From Heteronotia binoei (lineage: Eukaryota), in contig NC_083229.1 in the NCBI RefSeq assembly GCF_032191835.1, forward strand, positions 46,500,001 to 46,564,000: a stretch of DNA of 64,000 nucleotides, read 5' to 3'. The notes beneath the pieces are model-generated. The model made no database searches. It saw only the letters and a list, made by a program, of their open reading frames with translations, and was not told where the DNA came from. The position numbers and the translations under genes were made by a program. Positions 16-62,404 of the stretch are shown here, one piece after another. Numbering within the stretch: position 1 is the stretch's first letter; every line of letters begins with the position of its first letter.

Positions 16-227
16 GGGAGGGACGGTGGCTCAGTGGTAGAGCATCTGCTTGGAAAGCAGAAGGTCCCAGGTTCAATCCCTGGCATTTCCAAAAAAGGGT
101 CCAGGCAAATAGGTGTGAAAAACCTCAGCTTGAGACCCTGGAGAGCCGCTGCCAATCTGAGAAGACAATACTGACTTTGATGGACCAAGTGTCTGATTCA
201 GTATAAGGCAGCTTCATATGTTCATAT
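16..227 (+). mobile_element. tRNA-derived SINE with CR1-type (TATGTTCA)n tail
   Basis: A-box-like GGTGGCTCAGTGGTAGAGC and B-box-like GGTTCAATCCC; ends gcagcttcatatgttcatat; close paralogue at 9016-9236. Confidence 0.85.
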
Positions 228-40390: not shown

Positions 40391-40967
40391 TCTTAGTACC
40401 TTACAAAGTCCTCATGTCATGTTCAGGTCCACAAGAGCTTTCAATCAGATGTAAACTGTGAGTTCCCTACAGTGAATACAATTCCCAGACATAAACAGGC
40501 ATAATCTGGATTTGGACCAAAGTAGGCAAGAAGAGAGTATTTAAGCCCCAACACCCCACTTAGAGCTCCATGTACTGATGTGGCATGGGGGTAGGCTTAA
40601 TCACCCTCTCACCGTGTACCTGGTCATGATGGTAATCAGGCACCCACAAATTTGGGAACTGAGTTCCAAATGGAGACCTCACATCTCACATTTGATTAAA
40701 ATTCCTCATGGTAGACCCAAAACCAGGCTCAGATGGATGTTTTATTGGGAGGGGGGATAGAAAAGGGGAATTGTGTAACTTGTCCTAACATGCTGGCATT
40801 GTCAGACTATTAATGGATCACAATAAGTCCCTTAAAAGTTGTCTTCAATTCAATGAACCACATCTGTGCAATCAGGTTTGCTTGTTAACTGGTTGGCAAA
40901 AATTTTTGAAGACATGTTATTGCAAATTTGACAGGTAATACAAGAAACAATTACTGTGGTGTGCTGG

Positions 40968-41583
40968 TGTTAGAATGAACCACACAACACACGTGTTGAG
41001 GAGAGAATGCTCTGCCTTGCCTCTCTGAGCAAGGGTTTATTTATTCCTGTTCCACTCACACCAAATATAATTCAGCTTACCGCATCGCAACAGACAAAGC
41101 ACGCACAGGAGAGCCAGTTTGGTGTAGTGGTTAAGTGTACGGACTCTTCTCTGGGAGAACCGGGTTTGATTCCCCACTCCTCCACTTGCACCTGCTGGAA
41201 TGGCCTTGGGTCAGCCATAGCTCTGGCAGAAGTTGTCCTTGAAAGGGCAGCTGCTGGGAGAGCCCTCTCCAGCCCCACCCACCTCACAGGGTGTTTGTTG
41301 TGGGGGAGGAAGGTAAAGGAGATTGTGAGCCGCTCTGAGATTCTTCGGAGTGGAGGGCGGGATATAAATCTAATATCTTCTTCTTCTTCATCATCTCTCC
41401 TGTTACCATGAGGTCGTGTCTGCCTCATCTACAGAAACTAATACCAACTCAGCAGTTGTCAGGAATAGATTTATCTGAGGAAGCAGAAGTGTGGTTTGAA
41501 CACCGGTGTAAGAATCTTGTGCTTTTGTGTTATCAGAATTATAGGGAAGCAGGATGGTGTGCTGATTGCATGATCCTCCCACA
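40968..41583 (-). repeat. 3' LTR of the ERV (interrupted by a Squam3-like SINE)
   Basis: Collinear with 48023-48352 once 41109-41391 is removed; preceded on minus by purine-rich AAAAAAGAGTAAGA (PPT, 41584-41597); AATAAA on minus. Confidence 0.93.
41109..41391 (+). mobile_element. Squam3-like SINE inserted in the 3' LTR
   Basis: GAGAGCCAGTTTGGTGTAGTGGTTAAG...GGAGGGCGGGATATAAATC-(TCT)n; absent from the 5' LTR. Confidence 0.9.
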
Positions 41584-43737
41584 TCTTACTCTTTTTTATT
41601 TATTTATTGTAAGCTTATTTTAGTAAGGCAATTTTGTGTGATCATAATTCTGTGTGACCACTCAGGAAGGGCAGTTAAGTGACATTTTGGTTTTCGACAT
41701 TCCCAGGAAGGAATGAAATGACGTTACAGTGGGGTAACAAAAAGATGTACTAGATGGGGTAAAAATAAGCCACAGCTGGAAAACAAACAATAATGGGTTT
41801 ATGCATTCATACTGGCACATCTTAGTATTTAATTTTTGTCCCAAAAAGATGCGTGTGTAGGGGGAGAAGGGTTATTCAGAGGCATGCTTTGACTAGGCAG
41901 CCCAGCCTTCCATTACAGAGCTGTTTAGGTCTCCATCATGGGGCTGGGCATGCAGGCTAGTGTGAGAGGGCCCACCATGTCTTTTGAGGCTAGGCTACCC
42001 TCCTTATGCCGTGAGAGGGTCCACCATGTCTCTTTTGAGGCTAGGCTACCCTCTTTATACAATAGCACACTGGTATCAGTTCCCCCCCTTCCTGCACTGT
42101 ACAATTCTTGGAGAGTGTATGCCACATTGCATGAGGTGCTCTCATTTAGATTTCAAACAACCAGGGTTGAAACACAGTTGAGACAAGAGGGGGATGGGAA
42201 TGTCAATTACCAAAAATAAGCTCTTCATGCATGAGGGAAAGCTATGTGTCTTGGTATTGACAATTCTTTATCAATAAACACTACTAGTTATGTTGCAAGA
42301 ATAAAAAAACTCATTTCAATTTCTAAAACACATAAGGGACATATGGAAGTGACATGTTATAAACTGAATCAATTCATGTGCCTTTATGGCAAGCAGCATA
42401 TTGTAGCCTAGGTGATCAAGATACACACATTCAAACATAGGTGAGAGCATGGCCAGAAATGGGCAGTCCATACTGGCCATAATAACATAGGTGAAAGCAG
42501 TGCCAGAGATGGGCAGTCCATACTGGCACATTACAATACAAAAACCATTTCACTGTTCATTTCTTGTTTCCCTCCTCCCTTAGTCTAACAAAAGGTCTTC
42601 TTTCTTGAATTCATGGAGAGTTTGCGTGCTTTATACATGACAATCTTTTCAAAGGGAAATGTTTTTTTTTTTGTAGCCAAAAGGAATTCTTTTTATTTGG
42701 AACTACAACTTGGAAGTGACAGTGGGGCTGCTATTGTGATCATCTGGGGCAACCAGCCTTTTGCTAGGCAGAGGAATTTCCCTGAAAATAAGTTTTCTCC
42801 ATAACTCAGTTTGGATGGGGTTTTGGGGGAGGCCTTCCTTCCAACATCAATGAGGCATGCCCAGGCAAATTTCAGGGCCTCTGGGTAGATATGGAAGAGC
42901 ATGGAAAACATACCTGGAGAAACAAACAAAACAAGAATAATAGATTTTTTTTTTCTTTTAAAGCTTTCCTTGGCTGTCCACAAATTGCCATAACTTGAGC
43001 TCAACCCTGTTGAGATACGGTTGCACACATTAGATAAATTACTACACTTGTTTTGGAATGGAGACTTTCTCCTCCTCACATGGAGTTTCAGTTTGACAAG
43101 GTCTCTACCCTTCCAATGTTAAAGGGCAAATTTTATACACCATACATTATGCAAAATACAAATCCACAATATAAACCTATGCATCACTTCTCATGATTCA
43201 GACTAGTGTACACCCATATAGAAAGCATGCACCTAGAGATTCATGAAAGGCTTTTTACTTTGTTGCAACAGATATGAATTTTAATAAAAACATGAAATTG
43301 TGCACAAGATTGGAGCTCCAAAAAGAGATTACCAGAGTTGGAATTACCCCTGGATTCTGAAAATGGTCACAAAAAGGGAAGAAAAATGTTTGCTATAGCT
43401 TTAGAACATATAAAATTGTCAAAAATAAGAAAAACATCAAAAACAAACAAAATAAAAATGAGGCCTCAATAGAACAATGCCAACTTTAACATGCATGTAT
43501 ACGAGCGATCAGACCCAAAATGATTAGAGAACTGGATCAGAGAATTTAAACCATTGGAAATCAGTGGGGTGATCAAGTCCCACTGAACCCCATTTTTCTC
43601 TGTGCCAGCTCATCCAAAATTTGTTCTGTGGGTCTCACATAGGTGTGAGAGTCGGTTTCAACAAACTTTAGCAACAAAATCCTAAAAGCAAATTCTGGTT
43701 AATACACCTTGACAAACACACAAAACAATTCTTAAAT

Positions 43738-43881
43738 NNNNNNNNNNNNNNNNNNNNNNNNNNNNNNNNNNNNNNNNNNNNNNNNNNNNNNNNNNNNNNN
43801 NNNNNNNNNNNNNNNNNNNNNNNNNNNNNNNNNNNNNNNNNNNNNNNNNNNNNNNNNNNNNNNNNNNNNNNNNNNNNNNNN
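43738..43881. other. Assembly gap (144 N) inside the provirus
   Basis: Run of N. Confidence 0.99.
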
Positions 43882-44781
43882 ACTTGCACAGCCAAGAAGA
43901 TGTGTGGGGCAGTGCAAAGATATAATTCAAAACTGATGTATAAAGCAGGGTGCTAAAACATGCACCTTGATGAAGTTGAAATAATGGAGAAGCTGAAACT
44001 TAAAACAAGCAAAAAGAAACGTGTTATCCAATAGCAAGCCTGGCCAGGACTGTAGAATGGGTTGAAACACAAAATCAAGCAGAACTGTAGTTCTACCATA
44101 GTAAGAACATGAAACATAGAAAGGATTTTCTAAACAAAACACTCAGAAAAGGTCAAACTCTAACAAGATACTCTAGAGGCATAAAATAAAATAGATAAGC
44201 ATGTAGATACCTCTTTCCACAGGTAAGAGGTTCACCAAATAGCTAAATAGGAAGATTGATATGTACAGTTCATAGATGGAACATAACTATAAATGACATT
44301 AAGAGAGCAAATGAAGATATACATTTAAGGAATGCAGAACATTATTATAAAGTCCAGATTTCTAATGAAGACCAAGAGTTTTTAGGAATTCTGCCTAGTG
44401 AATTACCAATAAATCTAGAAAAGGTATTTCTATGAGAAGCACGACATTGAGAATAAAACAAGGTATTAGTTTTTCAAGACTTAAGAGAGAAGTTGCACAG
44501 TGAGAGGGTAGTTTTATCCAAGGAAGGGTACAGATGTTCTTCTATAACACATGCTATAACTTCAAATGAAAAGAGGTCTTATAGGAACCAAAATTTGTGA
44601 GGTAGAATTTTAAAACACTGTTCTTTTCAGAAAATAAAAATTCAGAACCAACAACAAAAAGAATTTTCAGATTTAAATGAATGAAAAATTGGGGAAGTTC
44701 AAAGTAAGATAGAAAACTGTGTTAAATGTAACACTAATAGCCTTGACAGGAGACAAAATACATAAATATAAACAATAGAGA

Positions 44782-45270
44782 CTAGTCATGGATTTCATTG
44801 TGAGTTTCAAAAACAGCAGCCACCAAATTCTCTGGAGAAGGCTCTTGCCCAGCCTCTTCCAGCGTTTGAGGCTGAGATTGAAATTGAGAATCAGGTTTGG
44901 GAGACCCTGATGCCATGCCATCTTTAGCCGGGTGAATACAATGTGCCAGAACCCACAAAAGACCTGCAAGAGAAAACACAGCAGCATGTCTGCACCCCCA
45001 GGTAAGGGGAGCTGAACCAAAGAGAAAACACAGCAGCATGTCTGCACCCCCAGGTAAGGGGAGCTGAACCATGCCGTTAATAAGCCCAAAGACCAAATTC
45101 AATTGTTCCTGAGCCTGCATTTGGATAGGAACCCTCATTTTCACTCCTTTTAATTGTTTTTGAAGAGTGGTTTTCAATGTCTGATTAGCATGTTCCACAA
45201 TAGCTTGACCTGTGGAATTACATGAAATGCCATGCTGGAATTAAATGTTCCATTGTGTACAAAAATCAAC
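44782..45270 (-). pseudogene. ERV integrase remnant (catalytic-core end and C-terminal domain)
   Basis: FCTQWNI*FQHGISCNSTGQAIVEHANQTLKTTLQKQ parallels the betaretroviral IN G-I-P-Y-N-x-x-G-Q-A-I-V-E-R-x-N-x-T-L-K segment; GSAPLTWGCRHAAVFS...LWVLAHCIHP parallels the IN CTD WGRGYACV...W...IRP segment; stop codon and a 52-bp duplication. Confidence 0.8.
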
Positions 45271-46084
45271 ACATTCAGAAAAACAGGTAAAGTAAAATGG
45301 GATTCAGCAAGAGAAATACAGAAATATAGACAGCGGTCTTGTCTAGCATGTACAAAACTAACAGGCACATAGTAAAATCTGTTATCACCCCCTCCTTGTG
45401 TTATTGCAGCAGGGAGGATGTATGTCTGGAACCATCGTTTGTTGTTGCTGTTTCCAGAGAGGATGGGTTTTTAGATGCATGCTTTTATGGGCAATGTGAA
45501 GTCACCAGGGCCATTTTTTACTGCTGGTGTGTGTGCATGTGAGACCATATCTTAATTCTGGAAAATATTAGAACACACTTGAGATTAAATCAAGAGAAAA
45601 ACAAAATTAATTCTATATCACATGGCTGATCAAGAATGTTTTGTTTTGGTTTTTTTCATGAAAAGAGAAGCTAGGGTTAAAAATGAAGTTGCCCTTTGCT
45701 TTTCAGAGCAATTTGTAACACAAAGGGTTACATTCCTTAGCTCTATGCAAAGAAGCACTAAGCTATTTATTGCTTTAGTGAAACTTCGCTCATTTCCTGT
45801 TTCTTCTCTAAAGGCAGAGAGAGAGAGAGAGGAAAATGGCTCTAAGCACATGTCTTTGTTTGTTTTAAATAAAAAAAAATCTGGCTTGGGTTTTTGAAGT
45901 AATGCTATCTGTCTGTCTGCCACGCCTCTATTGGCAGTAATACTTTGTGGGCTGTTTTCTGTCTTCATTGCACAATCCTGTTGTTTGTACTTGGCCCGCC
46001 TTGCAGGGCTGGCGTGCAAGTGCAGAGCAGAGTTGTTAGTGATGAGGAAAAAAAAATGGGTAAGTGTGCCAATTGCTTTTGGTT

Positions 46085-46625
46085 CCTATTAAGCATTCAA
46101 TGAAATTGCTGAGCAGTCAGGCTAAAATAGATAATAGGAAGTACTTCTTCACCCGAAGGGTGATTAACATGTGGAATTCACTGCTACAGGAGGTAGTGGC
46201 AGCTACAAGCATAGCCAGTCCCAAGAGTGGACTGGATAAAAATATAGAGCAGAGATCCATCAATTGCTCTTAGCCACAGTATAGATATACAAATATATGT
46301 ACATGTGTGTATGCATAGAAGAAGACATTGGATCTATGTTCTGCCCTCCCTCACAACAGACACCCTGTGAGGTGGGTGGGGCCAAGAGAGCACTGACAGA
46401 AACTGCTCTTAACTAGAACAACCTCGGAGAGGGCTATGACCGCCCAAGGTCACTCCAGCAGTTGTAAGTGTAGGAGTGGGGAATTAAACCTGGCTCTTTC
46501 AGATAAGAGTCCACACACTTAATTATTACACAAAACTGACACATATTGGTCACTGGATGACACAGAGTGCTGGACTGGATGGGCTGTTGGTGTGATCCAA
46601 CACAGCTTCTCTTATGTTCTTATGT
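46085..46625 (+). mobile_element. CR1 3' end inserted in the ERV, itself interrupted by a minus-strand Squam3-like SINE (~46320-46535)
   Basis: SMKLLSSQAKIDNRKYFFTRRVINMWNSL matches the CR1 at 3249-3818; ends cttctcttatgttcttatgtt. Confidence 0.85.
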
Positions 46626-47059
46626 TAGTTTGCAAACCACACAGGTTAACAGCATAATCAGGAAGATGATTATTAGCACAATGTGCTGAGTCTGATCAAA
46701 AGCAACAAAAACCGTTTGTCCAGTGCTCTGGCATTTAGGTAAAAATAACTATGACTGAGAAAGAAAAATAAATAAATAGAAGAAGTAACATCTTTCAAAG
46801 TCTTATCAGCAAATTCATTGTTCTGAGCAATCACACCAGGAAGATTAAGATGGCTTTAAATAGTGAGCAATGAGAAAAGTAACAACAAAAAATTAAAACC
46901 TGCAAGATTAAAAATATAGCCAATCAAATCAAGGTCAGTTTGGAGAGATACATGCACCAGGAAGTTGATGAATCAAATTCAGTGCATATAAGGTGTCCTA
47001 TTAAGTTGAAAGCCTGTGTGAATAGTAACAATTTCAGCCTGCTGCACTGAGCACTGCCG

Positions 47060-47247
47060 CAAAGTAAAGTTTTACACTTCCCCCCAACAAATTGGGTACT
47101 CATTTGACCAACCTCAGAAAAATGGAAGGCTGAGTAACCTTGAGGCAGCTACCTGAATCCAGCTTCCGCCAGGATCAAACCCAGGCCATAAGCAGAGCTC
47201 AAGACTGCAGTACTGCAGCTTTAACGCTCTGCACCACGGGGCTCTTT
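47060..47247 (-). mobile_element. 3'-truncated Sauria-like SINE at the point where gag homology stops
   Basis: Minus strand GAGCCCCGTGGTGCAGAGCGTTAAAGCTGCAG...; same family as 15817-16124. Confidence 0.8.
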
Positions 47248-47833
47248 TTGAATCCAAATTAACATTTTCTCTGATAGCCTTTACCGATAAAAGGTCAGGC
47301 AACTCTTCCCCTGTCAAATGTACAGGGCAAATAGACAACATTTCTGCCAATTCTGGGACATCTTCCAATTTAGCCTGATCAAGTTCCTTCCCCAAAACTT
47401 CACAGACCATGTGTCCCGGGGCATTAGATGGTGGGCCCATGGGTGGATCTGTTGGTGGAAGAGGGGGAGAAGGAGGAGGAAGAAGAGGAGGGGCAGGGGG
47501 CACAAGTTGGACACTAGTGCCTTTTAGGGGACAATCTTTGAAGAGCTGGCTTGAGTTAGAAACGGGCATAAATTTCTCTACTGCATATCTGCATTTATGC
47601 CAGAATTGCAGCAGTTTAATAGAAGCTCGGGGCTCTGTGTGAAAGGTCTTCCCTATCTTCTCCCAGTCCCGAAGTTTAAGAGAACCTCCTTCCGGATACC
47701 AGGGGCATTACTTACTGATATCTTGTAACAGAGTCTTAAGTTGGCCAGAAGTCATGGACCCGCCGGACTTTTGGATCAAAAACTTTAACTCACCTAAATG
47801 TTTCTGCTCAGCCTGAGAGAACTGTCCACCCAT
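47248..47833 (-). pseudogene. ERV gag remnant: betaretroviral matrix (Gag_p10-like) + proline-rich region
   Basis: ATG at 47833: MGGQFSQAEQKHLGELKFLIQKSGGSMTSGQLKTLLQDISK*CPWYPEGGSLKLRDWEKIGKTF; CPW.PE.G.L.L.DW..IGK is the class II MA signature; single in-frame TAA at 47708-47710; frame continues into ORF 47114-47569; splice donor GGTAAGT directly before the ATG. Confidence 0.9.
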
Positions 47834-48001
47834 ACTTACCAAATGAAAGGGGTCATTTGAGAACGACAGAGTGCGCACTTTGGGGTCTTATGCCAGGCAT
47901 TTGATAAGTAGGAGCTGAGCTGCTGGGCTGTGCCAGGTGATACCTGAAAGCAGGAGCTCTCCCTTGTCCCGGGAGCTGAGCTGTGCCTGCCTCGGTGAGC
48001 T

Positions 48002-48020
48002 GTCCCTGCTTCAGGCGCCA
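48002..48020 (-). promoter_or_regulatory. Primer-binding site, tRNA-Lys3(UUU) type
   Basis: TGGCGCCTGAAGCAGGGAC vs canonical TGGCGCCCGAACAGGGAC (1 substitution, 1 insertion), 2 nt from the LTR end. Confidence 0.85.
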
Positions 48021-48022
48021 CT

Positions 48023-48352
48023 TGTTGGAATGAACCACACAACACACGTGTTGAGGAGAGAATGCTCTGCCTTGCCTCTCTGAGCAAGGGTTTATTTATT
48101 CCTCTTCCACTCACACCAAAAATAATTCAGCTTACTGCATCGCAACAGACAAAACACTCACAGGAAGACATCTCCCCCATTACCATGAGGTCGTGTCTGC
48201 CTCGTCTACAGAAACTAATACCAGCTCAGCAGTTGTCAGGAATAGATTTATCTGAGGAAGTAGAAATGTGGTTTGAACACGGGTGTAAGGATCTTGTGTT
48301 ATCAGAATTATAGGGAAGCAGGTTGGTGTGCTGATTGCATGATCCTCCCACA
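48023..48352 (-). repeat. 5' LTR of the ERV (330 bp)
   Basis: TG...CA termini, AATAAA on minus, followed by the PBS; paired with 40968-41583. Confidence 0.93.
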
Positions 48353-50139
48353 TGCTGGCTAACAATATTTATTAAAATCATTTTAAAACCCTTTGCAAAT
48401 ATCTTTTTGCACTTCATATTATGACAGAGATCCATTCTCACATTTCAATATGACAAAAGAAGTCCTATGTACACCCGAATGTAAGCTCATTTCATCAATG
48501 GACTTTCTCAGGAGTAATCCTTCATAAAATTCTTCCATGGTTACCAGCCTTTTGTTACAACCCAATGTGAATGCTCTTCTTCAAGTTCTTTCATCCTGGA
48601 ATACACCAAAATACTAACAACAAGGCATACTACAAAGCTGAATGGAAATACATATTTCTTGAGATTTTATATTGTTGTAAAAAAACTTACCACTCAATGA
48701 CACTTAAGTGCATGTGCTTCTATTTGGAGCTTAAGCCAGTCCAAACTTATTTTTTTTAGCCAGATGCACAAGCCCTCTGGAGTTGTTGGTCTTTAAGGCT
48801 CTCTACAATATTTTTATTGGAAGCAAGCTGTTCTTTTAGATGGCCAATTGCTCTTCTACTCTCTATATTAATTATTTTTAATTATTTTTTTAATTTTAAT
48901 TTTGAGTAAGCCATTCCTTTGACAGCAAATTAGCTCAAAGCCACTTAAGTGTAAGGCCAGTCCTATGCCTCTACTAAATGCAAAAATCTCTTAAGAGTCT
49001 ATTGGCAATGTCCTAAGCAAAAGACTGAAACTCTAACTCTACTTTAAAGACCATTCTGATAATTCCAAGCAGCTGCATGTTACATATTTCTTTCTTAAAG
49101 GTATAACAATGACAAAAATTCTTCTAGGCTGAAACCCCATACAATACATCCAATTAAATGCCAGTGACCAGGGGGAACCTGGGAACTCTACTGATAATTC
49201 ACACACATCTGCATCTGCTAGTAGGTAACAACACCATACTTCCAGTGAACTATAGGAACAAGTGGCAATTATACCTGCATAAATCTAATTTATTTATTTA
49301 CCTACTTCCTTTATACCTTGCCTTTCTCCTCAGAGCACCTTATATCATTGTCCTCTCTTCCATTTTATCCTTGCTAGACTGCAGTTCACCAACCAAGCTT
49401 CCATGGCTGCAGGGATTCTAACCTGAGGCTCCCAGATCCTAGCCCAACACTTTAAACCACTAATTTGCTGCAATATAAATTGCAAATTAAGTGAAATCAA
49501 ACATATTGCTGAATTGATAATCAAATTAGACAGCATTGGATTTGGTTGGTTCCATGCCATCTGTTTAGCTCGAGACTGCTACAACACATTTAGTAAATTT
49601 TTAAAGATAATCCAGATGCAAAATTTTCTATGTTGCTTTCCTGCATTTTCCTGTATGTGGTATTTTTTAAACTTAAAATAGGCTCTCCTGTTTGGATACT
49701 TAAAGTGGTATTAAGGCTTCCCAGTACTACTGTACCTTTTAGTATTTAATTCTTCCTTCTTCCATTAAATAATATAATTATTTCCTGTTTTCTCCTGCAC
49801 CTCTCATGAATAATTGTAAATTCTCATCTCTTGTTTCCTGGGGAGAGGGGCTTAAGTATCACTTTGCACTTTTTAGCCAGCTGAACTCAGCACCAATCTT
49901 TTTTAAAATGGCCATTCTTTAATAATTATACTGTTGCCATCACTGCAAATAAAATACAGTAGTGTAGCACCAGCCTGAACTACATGAAAATGTTACTTAC
50001 ATACAAAATTTAGAATCAGGCAGCCTCGTCTATAAATCAGTAATAGTTCAATTAAAAATTGTTCATGATCAAATTGAAGTTGCCCCCATCAAACAAGTAG
50101 GATGAAGAGGACCAGGGGCTGAATCAGCAAAATGGCAAG

Positions 50140-58963: not shown

Positions 58964-61900
58964 TTTATTTTTATTTTATTTCATTTATATCCCGCCCTCC
59001 CCCACCACGGCAGGCTCAGGGCGGCTAACAACATTCTACAATCATACAATAACAAGTAAAACCTTAAAATTACAATATAGAGCAATAAAACATTAAAATA
59101 TTAACTTAAAACCAATCCAGTAATACAGTTGTGATGCGGTATAGATCTTTAGACCGCATTGGCGGACCCTTGGTTACCGTTTTTCCTAGCAGTCCGAGTA
59201 TGCTAATTTAAAAAGGGTGGTCTTGCAGGCCCTGCGGAACTGTTCAAGGTTCCGCAGGGCCCGCACCTCCTCTGGGAGTCGGTTCCACAGGGTAGGGGCC
59301 GCGATCGAAAAGGCCCGTGCTCTGGTACTCTGATATTTAATTTCCTTCGGCCCAGGGACAGTCATTAGGTTTTTCCCGGTTGACCTCAGTGCTCTCTGGG
59401 GTTCGTATGGGGAAAGACGGTCCCTCAGGTAGACAGGTCCTCGGCCATATAAGGCTTTAAAGGTAACGACCAACACTTTGTACTGGACCCGGTATATAAT
59501 CGGCAGCCAGTGCAGTCCACGTAGCCCCGGCTGTATATGTTCCCGTTTTGGGAGTCCCAACAACAGCCTGGCCGCCGCGTTCTGCACTAGCTGCAATCTC
59601 CGGGTCCGGCACAGAGGTAGCCCCAAGTAGAGGGCATTACAGTAGTCTAGTCTTGAGGTGACCGTTGCGTGATTCACTGTTGCGAGGTCCCGGCGCTCAA
59701 GGAAAGGGGCCAGCTGCCTTGCCCGCTTCAGATGGAAGAATGCTGACTTGGCAGTGGCTGCTATCTGGGCCTCCATCGATAGTGAAGGCTCCAGTAAAAC
59801 ACCCAGACTCTTTACCTGGCGCGCTGCTTTCAATGGCGCACCATCAAAGGTCGGGAGAGCTATTTCCCTTCCCAGAGCGCCGCGACCCACGCATAGGACC
59901 TCTGTCTTCGCTGGATTCAACTTCAGCCCACTCAGCCTGAGCCATGTCGCAACAGCCTGTAATGCCCGGTCGAGGTTCCCTGGGGCGGAGTCGGGCCATC
60001 CATCCATTAGTAGATAGAGCTGGGTGTCATCTGCATATTGATGGCAACCCAGCCCAAACCGCCGGGCAATCTGGGCAAGGGGGCGCATATAGATGTTAAA
60101 CAACATCGGGGAGAGAACTGCTCCCTGAGGCACCCCACAATCCAGTGTGCGCCTCCGGGACCGCTCGCTCCCGATAGCCACCCTCTGTCCCCGACCTAGG
60201 AGAAAGGAGGAAAGCCACTGCAAGGCCGACCCCTCAACCCCAATGTCGGCGAGGCGGCGCGTCAGTAACCGATGGTCGACTGTATCAAATGCAGCCGACA
60301 GGTCTAACAACATCAGTACCGCAACGCCGCCCCGATCCAGTTGCCGTTGGAGGTCATCCACTAAGGCGACCAGCACCGTCTCCGTCCCATGGCCCGGCCG
60401 GAAACCAGACTGACATGGGTCTAGGACAGAAGCGTCATCCAGAAACCCCTGTAGCTGCTGCGCCACGGCCCTCTCAATAATTTTACCTAAAAACGGTAAA
60501 TTGGACACCGGCCGGTAGTTCGCCAATTCAGCCGGGTCTGCTGTAACTTTTTTCAGGAGAGGGCGGACCAAAGCCTCTTTCAGAGGTGTTGGAAAATGCC
60601 CCTCTAAAAGGGATCTATTTATGATGTCCCGTAAAGGACATCTAAGCTCCCCTTGGCAGGATTTAATCAGCCAAGAGGGGCAAGGGTCCAGATCACATGT
60701 TGTCGGGCGAGCAGCAGAGAGGACTCTGTCGACTTCCTCCAGGCTGAGTGGGTCGAAGTGGTCCAGCACTAAACCCGAAGACAGGCACGGAGCCTCAATT
60801 TCACTCACTGTATCTAATGTGGTAGGCAGGTCTTGGCGGAGCAGCGAGATTTTATCTGCAAAATATTTCGCAAATGCCTCGCAGCCTATTTCTAATTCTC
60901 TAACATTTGGTTTGCCTTGTGGCAACGTTGTAAGATCCCCAATTATTCTAAATAATTGTGCTGGGCGCGAATTTGCAGATGCAATCTTGGTTGCAAAGTA
61001 ATCTTTCTTTGCAGCCTTGACTGCCATCTCATAAGACTTCATAAACGTTCTATAGGATGTTCTCGTTGCTTCGTCCCGAGTATGCCTCCATTGCCTCTCT
61101 AGTCGTCTGAGCCCTTGTTTCAGCTGGCGCAACTCCAAGGTGTACCATGGAGCCAGCTTCATACGAGGGCGCAGAGGGCGCCGGGGTGCAATTTCGTCGA
61201 TAGCCCTGGACAGCTGGCCCTGCCATATTTCCACCAGGTCATCGAGGGAATTGCCAGTGGGCCAGGGATCCCTCAGGGCCGTTTGGAACCGTTCCGGGTC
61301 CATCAGGCCCCGAGGGCGAGCCAAAATAGGCTCTCCGCCCATACAGGGTTGGGGCGGCATCCCCACACGGGCCTTAAGGGCTAGGTGATCCGACCATGGT
61401 ACCGCTTCTACGGCGATATCGTTCACCAAAATCCCGGCTGCAAAGATCAGGTCTAATGTGTGCCCGGCCTGATGCGTGGGAGTCGTAACAAATTGAGAGA
61501 GTCCCAGTGTCGCCATGGACGACACTAGGTCCATCGCCTGAATGGAGGCCGTGTCGTCGGCATGGACGTTGAAGTCACCCAGGACCATAAGCCTCGGGTA
61601 CTCCAACGCCCAGCCCGCCACTGCCTCCAATAGTGATGGTAAGGCGTTAGCTGGCGCGTTGGGCGGACGGTACACCAGCCAAACTGCCAACCCCTCTCCG
61701 ACATCCCATGCCAGACCGGTGCATTCAATCCCGTCAATCTTTGGGTCCGGGAGAGCCCGAAAGGAGTAATCCTCCCGTATGAGTAATGCTACCCCTCCCC
61801 CCCGCCCGCTCATCCGTGATTGGTGAAAGACCGAGTATCCTGGGGGGGACATCTGGGAGAGAGCTACTGTCTCCCCGTCCCTCACCCAGGTCTCGGTCAC

Positions 61901-62404
61901 GCAAGCCAGGTCCATGTTCTGCCGTAGCAGGAACTCCCTAAGGGTTGCGGTCTTATTATTTATGGACCTGGCATTACATAACACCAATGACAGAGGCGAG
62001 CATTTCCTCTTGGTCCCACTACCTGCTACCATTGGGATGGGAAGTAGACTGGAAGGTGGCCGAGCGCCATTTTGTCTCTGTCTCCTTCCCTTATATTTCT
62101 GTCTATTCCCACCGTCATATCTTCCCCTCCCCAGGAGCACTGGAATCTCCTGGCCGAGCATCTGCACCAACCCAAGATGAACCCAAGGTAAACTCGCCGG
62201 TATCACTCCCCGATTTGTTTGCACCTGCCGTTCAATTTACCCTCCTCACCATAGCCCCTCCGGTTCCCGGCTAGTAAACCCACTACTCATGTCTTAAATT
62301 AATTAATTTAGTTAACCCTCCCAATCTACCTTACAACCAATTAGTTTGAATTCATATGCATTCATTAGTTCCTAAACTTATTAATAAATAATCCCTCCCA
62401 CCCC
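58964..62404 (-). mobile_element. L2-clade LINE, 3441 bp, 5'-truncated upstream of ORF2
   Basis: 15-bp TSD AATGTTTTGCTAATA at 58949-58963 and 62405-62419; A-rich (AAAT-like) tail; CpG-rich body. Confidence 0.93.
59186..62224 (-). CDS. L2 ORF2: APE endonuclease + reverse transcriptase, uninterrupted (~1012 codons)
   Basis: EN motifs CNARSI, VTETW, GGGVAL, VYRPP, LGDFNVH, GHTLDLIF, WSDH; RT motifs YRPVSNL, QSGFR, LDLSAAFDTVDH, GVPQGAVLSP, YADD; L2-type C-terminus RAFSIAAPTLWNRLP; the track start is GTG, first in-frame ATG is codon 22. Confidence 0.95.
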   Translation of the reverse strand: MQTNRGVIPASLPWVHLGLVQMLGQEIPVLLGRGRYDGGNRQKYKGRRQRQNGARPPSSLLPIPMVAGSGTKRKCSPLSLVLCNARSINNKTATLREFLLRQNMDLACVTETWVRDGETVALSQMSPPGYSVFHQSRMSGRGGGVALLIREDYSFRALPDPKIDGIECTGLAWDVGEGLAVWLVYRPPNAPANALPSLLEAVAGWALEYPRLMVLGDFNVHADDTASIQAMDLVSSMATLGLSQFVTTPTHQAGHTLDLIFAAGILVNDIAVEAVPWSDHLALKARVGMPPQPCMGGEPILARPRGLMDPERFQTALRDPWPTGNSLDDLVEIWQGQLSRAIDEIAPRRPLRPRMKLAPWYTLELRQLKQGLRRLERQWRHTRDEATRTSYRTFMKSYEMAVKAAKKDYFATKIASANSRPAQLFRIIGDLTTLPQGKPNVRELEIGCEAFAKYFADKISLLRQDLPTTLDTVSEIEAPCLSSGLVLDHFDPLSLEEVDRVLSAARPTTCDLDPCPSWLIKSCQGELRCPLRDIINRSLLEGHFPTPLKEALVRPLLKKVTADPAELANYRPVSNLPFLGKIIERAVAQQLQGFLDDASVLDPCQSGFRPGHGTETVLVALVDDLQRQLDRGGVAVLMLLDLSAAFDTVDHRLLTRRLADIGVEGSALQWLSSFLLGRGQRVAIGSERSRRRTLDCGVPQGAVLSPMLFNIYMRPLAQIARRFGLGCHQYADDTQLYLLMDGWPDSAPGNLDRALQAVATWLRLSGLKLNPAKTEVLCVGRGALGREIALPTFDGAPLKAARQVKSLGVLLEPSLSMEAQIAATAKSAFFHLKRARQLAPFLERRDLATVNHATVTSRLDYCNALYLGLPLCRTRRLQLVQNAAARLLLGLPKREHIQPGLRGLHWLPIIYRVQYKVLVVTFKALYGRGPVYLRDRLSPYEPQRALRSTGKNLMTVPGPKEIKYQSTRARAFSIAAPTLWNRLPEEVRALRNLEQFRRACKTTLFKLAYSDC

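What the first reader, a model, noticed from the sequence alone, without database searches (positions are those of the whole stretch)
40968..48352. Two-LTR class II (betaretrovirus-like) provirus in a lizard genome, upstream of and co-oriented with CA3
Seen: paired TG...CA LTRs, 6-bp TSD TGCTGG, Lys3-type PBS, PPT, splice donor, a myristoylation-type MG start with the CPW.PE.G.L.L.DW..IGK matrix motif, and an integrase core/CTD remnant. Established: a 6-bp TSD, a tRNA-Lys PBS and this matrix signature typify betaretroviruses (MMTV, HERV-K, MPMV). Inference: this may be an undescribed gecko class II ERV family; as far as I know, reptile class II ERVs are sparsely characterised. The ORF track misses the matrix domain because of one stop codon. 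By-eye LTR comparison gives ~16 substitutions plus one 9-bp indel in ~325 bp (~5%), so the insertion is neither very recent nor ancient.
Basis: partly seen in the sequence, partly recalled or inferred. Interest (0 to 1): 0.75.

Follow-up and report, generated by a model that had tools for sequence, protein, structure and literature searches.

The report
Gutted reptile class II retroviral insertion
This is a real but badly broken retroviral insertion 21 kb upstream of a carbonic anhydrase gene in a lizard-like genome; it belongs to a beta-like virus lineage also found in snakes, tegu, turtles and a caecilian, and it was likely already defective when a helper virus likely copied it here.

Summary
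The provirus is real. It lies on the minus strand with two TG…CA LTRs, a 6-bp target duplication, a near-Lys3 primer site and a polypurine tract; a relative's contigs show the empty site with one TGCTGG. The matrix hits Pfam Gag_p10 (E 1e-12); the integrase remnant is closest to MMTV/ASV among solved structures. Its nearest relatives are Gag, integrase and Env leaders already annotated in cobra, tegu, sea turtles and a caecilian, a reptile class II lineage noted in print in 2018. Capsid to reverse transcriptase is deleted, integrase is split by 1.2 kb of foreign DNA, and only the env signal peptide survives, followed by 3.1 kb of unidentified DNA. Related species carry this gutted interior in many variants, so it is likely a non-autonomous, ETn-like family. 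It is class II but cannot be filed as a Betaretrovirus. Side finding: relatives' Env joins a Rec/Rem-like leader to an alpha-like gamma-type ectodomain. No effect on CA3 is shown. Interest 0.33.

The parts
48023..48352 (-). 5' LTR, 330 bp, TG...CA, TATA-like box near 48310, AATAAA at 48100
48353..48358 (.). target site duplication, right copy (TGCTGG)
48002..48020 (-). primer binding site, tRNA-Lys3 type (17 of 18, one extra base)
47834..47839 (-). splice-donor-like GTAAGT just before the gag start
   Evidence: function inferred
47246..47833 (-). gag remnant: matrix (Gag_p10), proline-rich linker, start of capsid; one stop; cut off by a SINE
47074..47245 (.). SINE-like repeat at the point where capsid, nucleocapsid, protease and reverse transcriptase are missing
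   Evidence: 80-83% to two other places in the window; very high depth
46700..46867 (-). end of RNase H and first half of the integrase zinc finger, 31% to a sea-turtle element
   Evidence: score 69, best of 300 shuffles 35
45420..46626 (.). about 1.2 kb of non-viral DNA inside integrase: 670 bp unidentified, then LINE 3' fragments (46093-46280, 46546-46626) and a SINE fragment (46345-46538); left edge approximate
   Evidence: CR1 label recalled
44902..45285 (-). integrase core (second half) and C-terminal domain, with an internal deletion and a 52-bp tandem duplication
44735..44921 (-). env signal-peptide remnant in two frames; the middle (basic) part is missing
41598..44734 (.). 3.1 kb unidentified DNA where env SU/TM would be; includes a 144-base assembly gap (43738-43881) and two short tandem duplications; many variants in related species
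41584..41597 (-). polypurine tract
40968..41583 (-). 3' LTR, interrupted by a SINE
41111..41391 (+). full-length SINE with (CTT)n tail, in the 3' LTR only, so later than the integration
40962..40967 (.). target site duplication, left copy (TGCTGG)

Best explanation
A class II endogenous retrovirus of a reptile-amphibian lineage sits here with both LTRs, primer site and purine tract but without capsid, protease, reverse transcriptase or Env ectodomain, and it was likely already defective and likely copied in trans by a coding helper, as mouse ETn is by MusD. Shown: integrase-type insertion with a 6-bp duplication and an empty site in a relative; which genes are missing or broken; that related species hold the same gutted interior in many variants. 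Inferred: the RNA of a deleted copy kept its cis signals (LTR, Lys primer site, leader and 5' gag as packaging region, purine tract), was packaged, reverse-transcribed and integrated by helper proteins; afterwards the LTRs drifted 5% apart and a SINE landed in the 3' LTR. The locus now encodes no working viral protein; no effect on CA3 is shown.
For: Gag_p10 hit and best PDB matches HERV-K Gag, MPMV and MMTV matrix. Integrase best matches MMTV and ASV, then HTLV and lentiviruses. Matrix 52% to cobra, 50% tegu, 41-44% sea-turtle Gag; integrase 36-37% over about 150 columns to sea-turtle proteins, E to 1e-22 in a 7.4-kb target. Empty site: two contigs of run X2 run from the right flank straight into sequence like the left flank with one TGCTGG, and no listed piece of the four runs crosses from LTR into this flank. 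Interior covered at summed depth about 40-290 over most of 41644-45303 in X1-X3, up to 14 contigs at one base, mostly 90-95% alike. Contigs of X1 (45259-45518) and X2 (45378-45646) cross from integrase into the non-viral insert, so that defect is shared with copies elsewhere. Uneven decay: gag keeps its frame (1 stop in 196 codons; 0.2% of 500 shuffles as low) while the first half of the integrase core and the zinc-finger cysteines no longer align above shuffles, more damage than 2.5% drift per LTR would give. ETn/MusD and IAP 1-delta-1 precedent: PMC6466679, passages.
Against: No genome is held, so copy number, solo LTRs and shared breakpoints were not counted. The runs are RNA libraries kept as contigs from related species; summed depth is no copy number and pooled individuals could add variants. 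The flank has at least two variants in X2, so the empty site may be a paralogue. No listed contig crosses from the env leader into the 3.1-kb stretch, and relatives' contigs stop matching sharply at 41692, so that stretch could be a separate repeat. Frameshifts alone can hide short alignments. Where it aligns, integrase is as close to the turtle element as matrix is (45% and 45%).
Confidence: 0.62

Rival explanations
1. An ordinary full-length class II provirus integrated intact and decayed in place by deletions and later repeat insertions; the LTRs look young because of gene conversion.
For: The SINE in one LTR shows that repeats do insert after integration. Gag is little damaged.
Against: Relatives with an empty site carry the integrase/insert junction. 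Relatives carry the longer form of the 8-bp LTR indel, as the 3' LTR does, so the LTRs are not homogenised there. At least five separate lesions plus 3.1 kb of replacement is much for 5% LTR divergence.
Confidence: 0.2
2. A composite: a class II provirus into whose env region a different multi-copy repeat (41692 to about 44735) inserted, before or after integration.
For: Sharp edge at 41692 in relatives' contigs; depth higher there than over gag and LTR; no coding signal. In all four runs laid, the same LTR abuts a different 3' interior.
Against: No terminal inverted repeats span the stretch and no second copy lies in the 64-kb window; depth is continuous across the env-leader edge.
Confidence: 0.13
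3. A betaretrovirus with a beta-type (non-covalent) Env outside mammals, or one carrying a decayed antisense accessory or captured gene at 43884-44800.
For: Env leader is of the long Rec/Rem kind. One plus-strand frame has 15 stops against 25 and 28.
Against: No SU or TM remnant by profile, tblastn, Pfam or PDB. Relatives with this leader carry gamma-type TM. The stop deficit is not significant (15% of 500 shuffles); best PDB match E 0.3.
Confidence: 0.05

Closest known systems
Reptile class II ('Shui' clade) betaretrovirus-related ERVs of pythons, other squamates and turtles (Xu et al. 2018, PMC6001957); database Gag of Naja naja (P0007), Salvator merianae (P0001), Pantherophis guttatus (P0002), sea turtles (P0003, P0092)
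   Same: Gag_p10 matrix at 41-52% identity, same capsid-start motif, integrase, and the same env leader start.
   Different: This copy lacks capsid to RT and SU/TM; relatives keep capsid, zinc knuckles, dUTPase and protease. Identity with the exact lineages of that paper was not tested (no RT here; its supplements were not read).
Caecilian ERV-AB-Mun (class II pol, alpha-like gamma-type env, separate pro frame, 325-bp LTR; PMC12690878, passages)
   Same: Class II with alpha-like env in the lineage; LTR of nearly the same length (330 bp); a caecilian Gag and Env leader are among the relatives (P0022, P0072, Rhinatrema).
   Different: ERV-AB-Mun is young and coding; it is from another caecilian species and was not compared by sequence; matrix identity to the Rhinatrema Gag is 39%.
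Python molurus ERV (PyERV; as described in PMC3758190 and PMC1224870, passages)
   Same: Reptile class II gag-pol with gamma-type env.
   Different: PyERV env is described as murine-gamma-like and dUTPase was not found in it; the relatives here have alpha-like env and dUTPase. No sequence comparison was possible.
Mouse ETn (with MusD) and IAP 1-delta-1 (PMC6466679, passages)
   Same: Class II LTR element with only traces of viral genes, copied in trans.
   Different: Not homologous as a family; trans-mobilisation is shown for ETn and only inferred here.
Mammalian betaretroviruses MMTV, MPMV, HERV-K(HML-2)
   Same: Gag_p10 matrix, Lys primer site, 6-bp duplication, Rec/Rem-like env leader.
   Different: Far more distant by sequence (phmmer 25-39 bits for matrix); no beta-type TM.

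Membership tests
Integrated LTR retroelement (provirus) | Two TG...CA LTRs, target duplication, primer site, purine tract, empty pre-integration site | tested here: met
Class II ERV | Class II-type Gag matrix | tested here: met
   Gag_p10 E 1e-12; HERV-K, MPMV, MMTV best in PDB
Class II ERV | Integrase closest to beta/alpha/delta/lenti | tested here: met
   25 of 26 PDB matches are class II-type integrases by name or entry, the last an unrelated MHC chain at E 1; best MMTV and ASV (assignment of entries named only 'integrase' recalled); no Pfam hit
Class II ERV | Reverse-transcriptase phylogeny | not testable with these tools
   RT is deleted in this copy
Genus Betaretrovirus | tRNA-Lys primer site and 6-bp duplication | tested here: met
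   6 bp as a beta trait is recalled and is shared with alpharetroviruses
Genus Betaretrovirus | dUTPase before protease; two nucleocapsid zinc fingers (PMC1224870) | tested here: inconclusive
   region deleted here; present in turtle and agamid relatives
Genus Betaretrovirus | G-patch after protease (marker of mammalian betaretroviruses, PMC1224870) | not tested
   protease deleted here; not looked for in relatives
Genus Betaretrovirus (type B) | Beta-type TM (CXnC, no immunosuppressive domain) | tested here: not met
   no TM in this copy; relatives P0051, P0059 have the ISD and CX6CC, TLV_coat/Avian_gp85 matches
Genus Betaretrovirus (type B) | Long Rec/Rem-like env signal peptide | tested here: inconclusive
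   remnant matches the relatives' leader profile (E 5e-6 and 5e-5); 18 of 31 relatives show HERV-K_REC at E<=0.1, only 1 above the curated cut-off; the window's own piece gives no Pfam hit
Genus Alpharetrovirus | Alpha-type matrix and tRNA-Trp primer (recalled) | tested here: not met
   only Gag_p10 matched; primer site is Lys-type
Non-autonomous, trans-mobilised ERV (ETn-like) | Many copies sharing the same defects; cis signals intact; helper present | tested here: inconclusive
   cis signals met; shared insert junction and many variants in relatives; no genome to count, helper not seen

The most novel reading that the evidence does not exclude
An undescribed, ETn-like non-autonomous lizard family derived from a reptile-amphibian class II lineage whose Env joins a Rec/Rem/Rej-like leader to an alpharetrovirus-like ectodomain. 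If that leader worked as an RNA-export regulator, complex 'betaretroviral' regulation is not a mammalian invention and env swapping happened inside env, behind the signal peptide; the 3.1-kb replacement may hold the matching RNA element or captured host sequence.
Probability: 0.3. Interest if true: 0.58.

Novelty: new member of a known kind. Interest (0 to 1): 0.33.

Why it matters
As a locus it is one more decayed ERV. It matters modestly because class II ERVs of ectotherms are thinly described (a 2025 paper counts three, PMC12690878, passage) although databases hold many, because it likely shows trans-mobilised class II elements outside mammals, and because its presence/absence between related lizards is a phylogenetic marker. 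The wider point comes from its relatives: gamma-type Envs are described as having short, ordinary signal peptides (PMC9967133, passage), yet these carry a long Rec-like one.

Tried and rejected
Whole-genome copy count: no genome held. Pfam for integrase, env or anything else in the interior: only Gag_p10 in 6, 28, 5 and 4 window frames or pieces. Word-based protein search with the integrase remnant: 0 of 910 candidates. Beta-type env: three minus frames against PDB, 0 matches each; env profile from relatives finds the leader only. Hidden gene in the 3.1-kb stretch: stop counts not below shuffles (p 0.12-0.25) except 42400-43300 minus (p 0.02) and, in the integrase insert, 45420-46092 plus (p 0.04), two of 14 tests besides gag; NCBIfam 0 of 6; Atlas best 0.77 for the 141-codon frame at 42693-43118, no lead; the plus-strand frame at 43884-44800 has no Atlas result, PDB best CENP-N at E 0.3, rejected. 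Rfam: 0. Folding: 41660-42240 z -2.0, helped by its tandem repeat, leader z +1.0; neither taken as evidence. Viral contigs with a Gag alignment: none. RNase H/zinc-finger piece against PDB: none. Matrix tree of 11 rows (10 of 47 Gag relatives chosen by host): the window row is in no supported clade and no mammal or bird rows were on hand. Expression and strand: first mates fall on both strands, so nothing follows. Earlier scan findings: none in 4 look-ups. Regulation of CA3: no evidence either way.
Full report
Anatomy. The element spans 40968-48352 on the minus strand. The 5' LTR (48023-48352, 330 bp) and the 3' LTR (40968-41583) both run TG...CA and are flanked by TGCTGG. The 3' LTR holds a SINE of about 281 bp that the 5' LTR lacks; copies of it, 77-79% alike, lie elsewhere in the window. 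Outside the SINE the LTRs differ at 16 of 326 columns (11 transitions, 5 transversions; K2P 0.051, standard error about 0.012) and by one 8-bp indel. With an assumed neutral rate of 1-2.5 per billion sites per year (not measured, recalled range) that is roughly 10-25 million years. A primer site follows the 5' LTR after 2 bases and matches PBS-Lys3 as printed in PMC8775094 at 17 of 18 letters with one extra base; a splice-donor-like hexamer precedes the gag ATG, and a purine tract precedes the 3' LTR.

The insertion is confirmed from outside. No genome is held, but 3 of 12 listed runs hold 14-16% of the sampled words. They come from related species: laid records are mostly 90-95% alike. On 48200-48600, two contigs of X2 leave the right flank at the duplication and continue in sequence like the window's left flank, one at 27 of 30 letters, with a single TGCTGG; no listed piece of the four runs crosses from the LTR into this flank. 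The flank has at least two variants in X2, so one or both may be paralogues. The same lay shows the LTR joined to another flank in X5 and, in all four runs, to a purine tract with a different 3' interior, so the LTR family has other members.

Class. Read with X at its one stop, the gag piece hits Gag_p10 and, among solved structures, HERV-K Gag, MPMV and MMTV matrix. The integrase piece misses Pfam but matches MMTV and ASV integrase best (E 1.5e-4 to 1e-3). The closest sequences are reptilian: 1 of 1063 candidates for the gag piece, a tegu Gag; with that as query 47 of 7991 scored candidates, of which 42 sea turtle, 2 cobra, 1 tegu, 1 corn snake, 1 caecilian (the search is word-limited, so the lack of mammal or bird rows is no evidence). 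Matrix identity is 52% to cobra, 50% tegu, 41-44% turtles, 39% caecilian. A tree on 88 columns does not place the window row in a supported clade. Turtle and agamid relatives carry dUTPase before protease, a beta trait also seen in chicken alpha-beta intermediates (PMC1224870, passages).

What is broken. Gag stops at the start of capsid, where a SINE-like repeat sits (47074-47245); capsid, nucleocapsid, dUTPase, protease and RT are not detected with any of 47 Gag-search proteins or the later Pol-containing ones. The end of RNase H and half of the integrase zinc finger survive at 46867-46700 (31%). About 1.2 kb of non-viral DNA follows, with LINE and SINE fragments. The second half of the integrase core and the C-terminal domain lie at 45285-44902 with an internal deletion and a 52-bp duplication; the first half of the core does not align above shuffles. 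Env is reduced to its signal peptide (44921 to about 44735), in two frames and without its middle. The remaining 3.1 kb matches no Env, Pfam, NCBIfam, PDB or Rfam entry tested and shows no significant coding signal; 144 bases of it are an assembly gap.

How it likely arose. In X1-X3 most of 41644-45303 is covered by many variant contigs, up to 14 at one base, and contigs of X1 and X2 cross from the integrase core into the non-viral insert (only 24 of more than 11,000 pieces were listed). Since X2 also shows the empty site, those copies likely lie elsewhere, so the defects were likely copied with the element. Gag keeps its frame as expected after about 2.5% drift, while parts of integrase are past recognition. 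The simplest account is a non-autonomous family that kept its cis signals and was mobilised by a helper, as described for ETn/MusD and IAP 1-delta-1 (PMC6466679, passages). Against this: depth in RNA contigs is no copy number, relatives stop matching sharply at 41692, no listed contig bridges env leader and 3.1-kb stretch, and no helper was seen. I give it 0.62.

The env of the lineage. A full scan with a turtle env leader found 32 proteins among 1.84 billion. I looked up names for 23 of the 31 new ones: sea turtles, pond turtle, tortoise, agamid, anole, fence lizard, girdled lizard, tegu, cobra, rattlesnake, a caecilian, a pika 'Rec protein-like', and 4 unnamed. 18 of 31 show HERV-K_REC at E up to 0.1, 1 above the curated cut-off. 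Those that continue into TM (Caretta P0051, Anolis P0059) have an internal fusion peptide between cysteines, an immunosuppressive domain and CX6CC, the avian gamma-type of PMC3758190 (passages). So the claim that beta-type TM is confined to mammals (PMC3758190; bioRxiv 2021.11.23.469661, passages) is not challenged. Alpha-like envelopes are already reported as ubiquitous in reptiles (PMC13568524, passages). The Rec-like leader on such an Env did not turn up in two paper searches, which cover open-licence papers only; PMC9967133 (passages) describes gamma-type signal peptides as short.

Neighbour gene. Three carbonic anhydrase exons lie on the minus strand at about 19890, 16700 and 2250; the third matches CA3 best. 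The 3' LTR ends 21 kb upstream of its TATA box. Co-orientation is real; nothing links the two functionally.

Literature and verdict. Beta-related ERVs in squamates and turtles were noted by Xu et al. (PMC6001957, passages) and in caecilians (PMC12690878, passages). Searches for a gecko family gave 1, 30, 29 and 5 papers, none describing one by title or abstract start; no supplements were read, and those of Xu et al. may list such elements. All papers were seen as passages or listings, none whole. The host being a gecko, and the SINE and CR1 labels, are recalled; PMC10702118 (passages) only confirms (CTT)n tails for squamate SINEs. Verdict: a real, decayed, likely non-autonomous member of a known reptile class II lineage; it works like a defective betaretroviral element but is not shown to be a Betaretrovirus.

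Noticed in passing
P0051, P0059, P0061, P0067, P0072, P0087 (database proteins of turtles, lizards, a caecilian): Env proteins with a long Rec/Rem-like signal peptide on an alpha-like or other gamma-type ectodomain; the ectodomains differ between hosts (one leader is followed by a weak Ig-like match, P0068; P0087 has only two cysteines after its ISD-like stretch), suggesting repeated swaps behind a kept leader.
   Followed up: partly
window 43884-44800 +: A-rich stretch with one stop-poor frame antisense to the provirus (15 stops against 25 and 28; not significant); diverged variants in relatives; unidentified.
   Followed up: partly
window 45420-46092: 670 bp of unidentified DNA inside integrase, with a CCAAT-like box and an ATG followed by a splice-donor-like motif on the + strand; could be captured host sequence.
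   Followed up: no
runs X1, X2, X3, X5 at window 48353: Contigs of 981-1736 bases join this LTR family to a different 3' interior; 9 raw reads in X5; a candidate second subfamily.
   Followed up: no
window 59186-62236 -: Open frame of 1016 codons resembling a non-LTR retrotransposon endonuclease/reverse transcriptase (label by eye).
   Followed up: no
window 41960-42060 and 42434-42527: Two short tandem duplications (about 50 bp) in the 3' non-coding stretch; 21-base inverted pair at 41685-41705 and 42195-42215 next to the edge where relatives stop matching.
   Followed up: partly
P0069 (Crotalus): A gene model of a sugar transporter isoform ends in this env leader, probably an ERV exon spliced or mis-annotated into a host gene.
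   Followed up: no
window 19-91 +: ARAGORN calls a tRNA-Ser-like gene; may be a SINE head.
   Followed up: no
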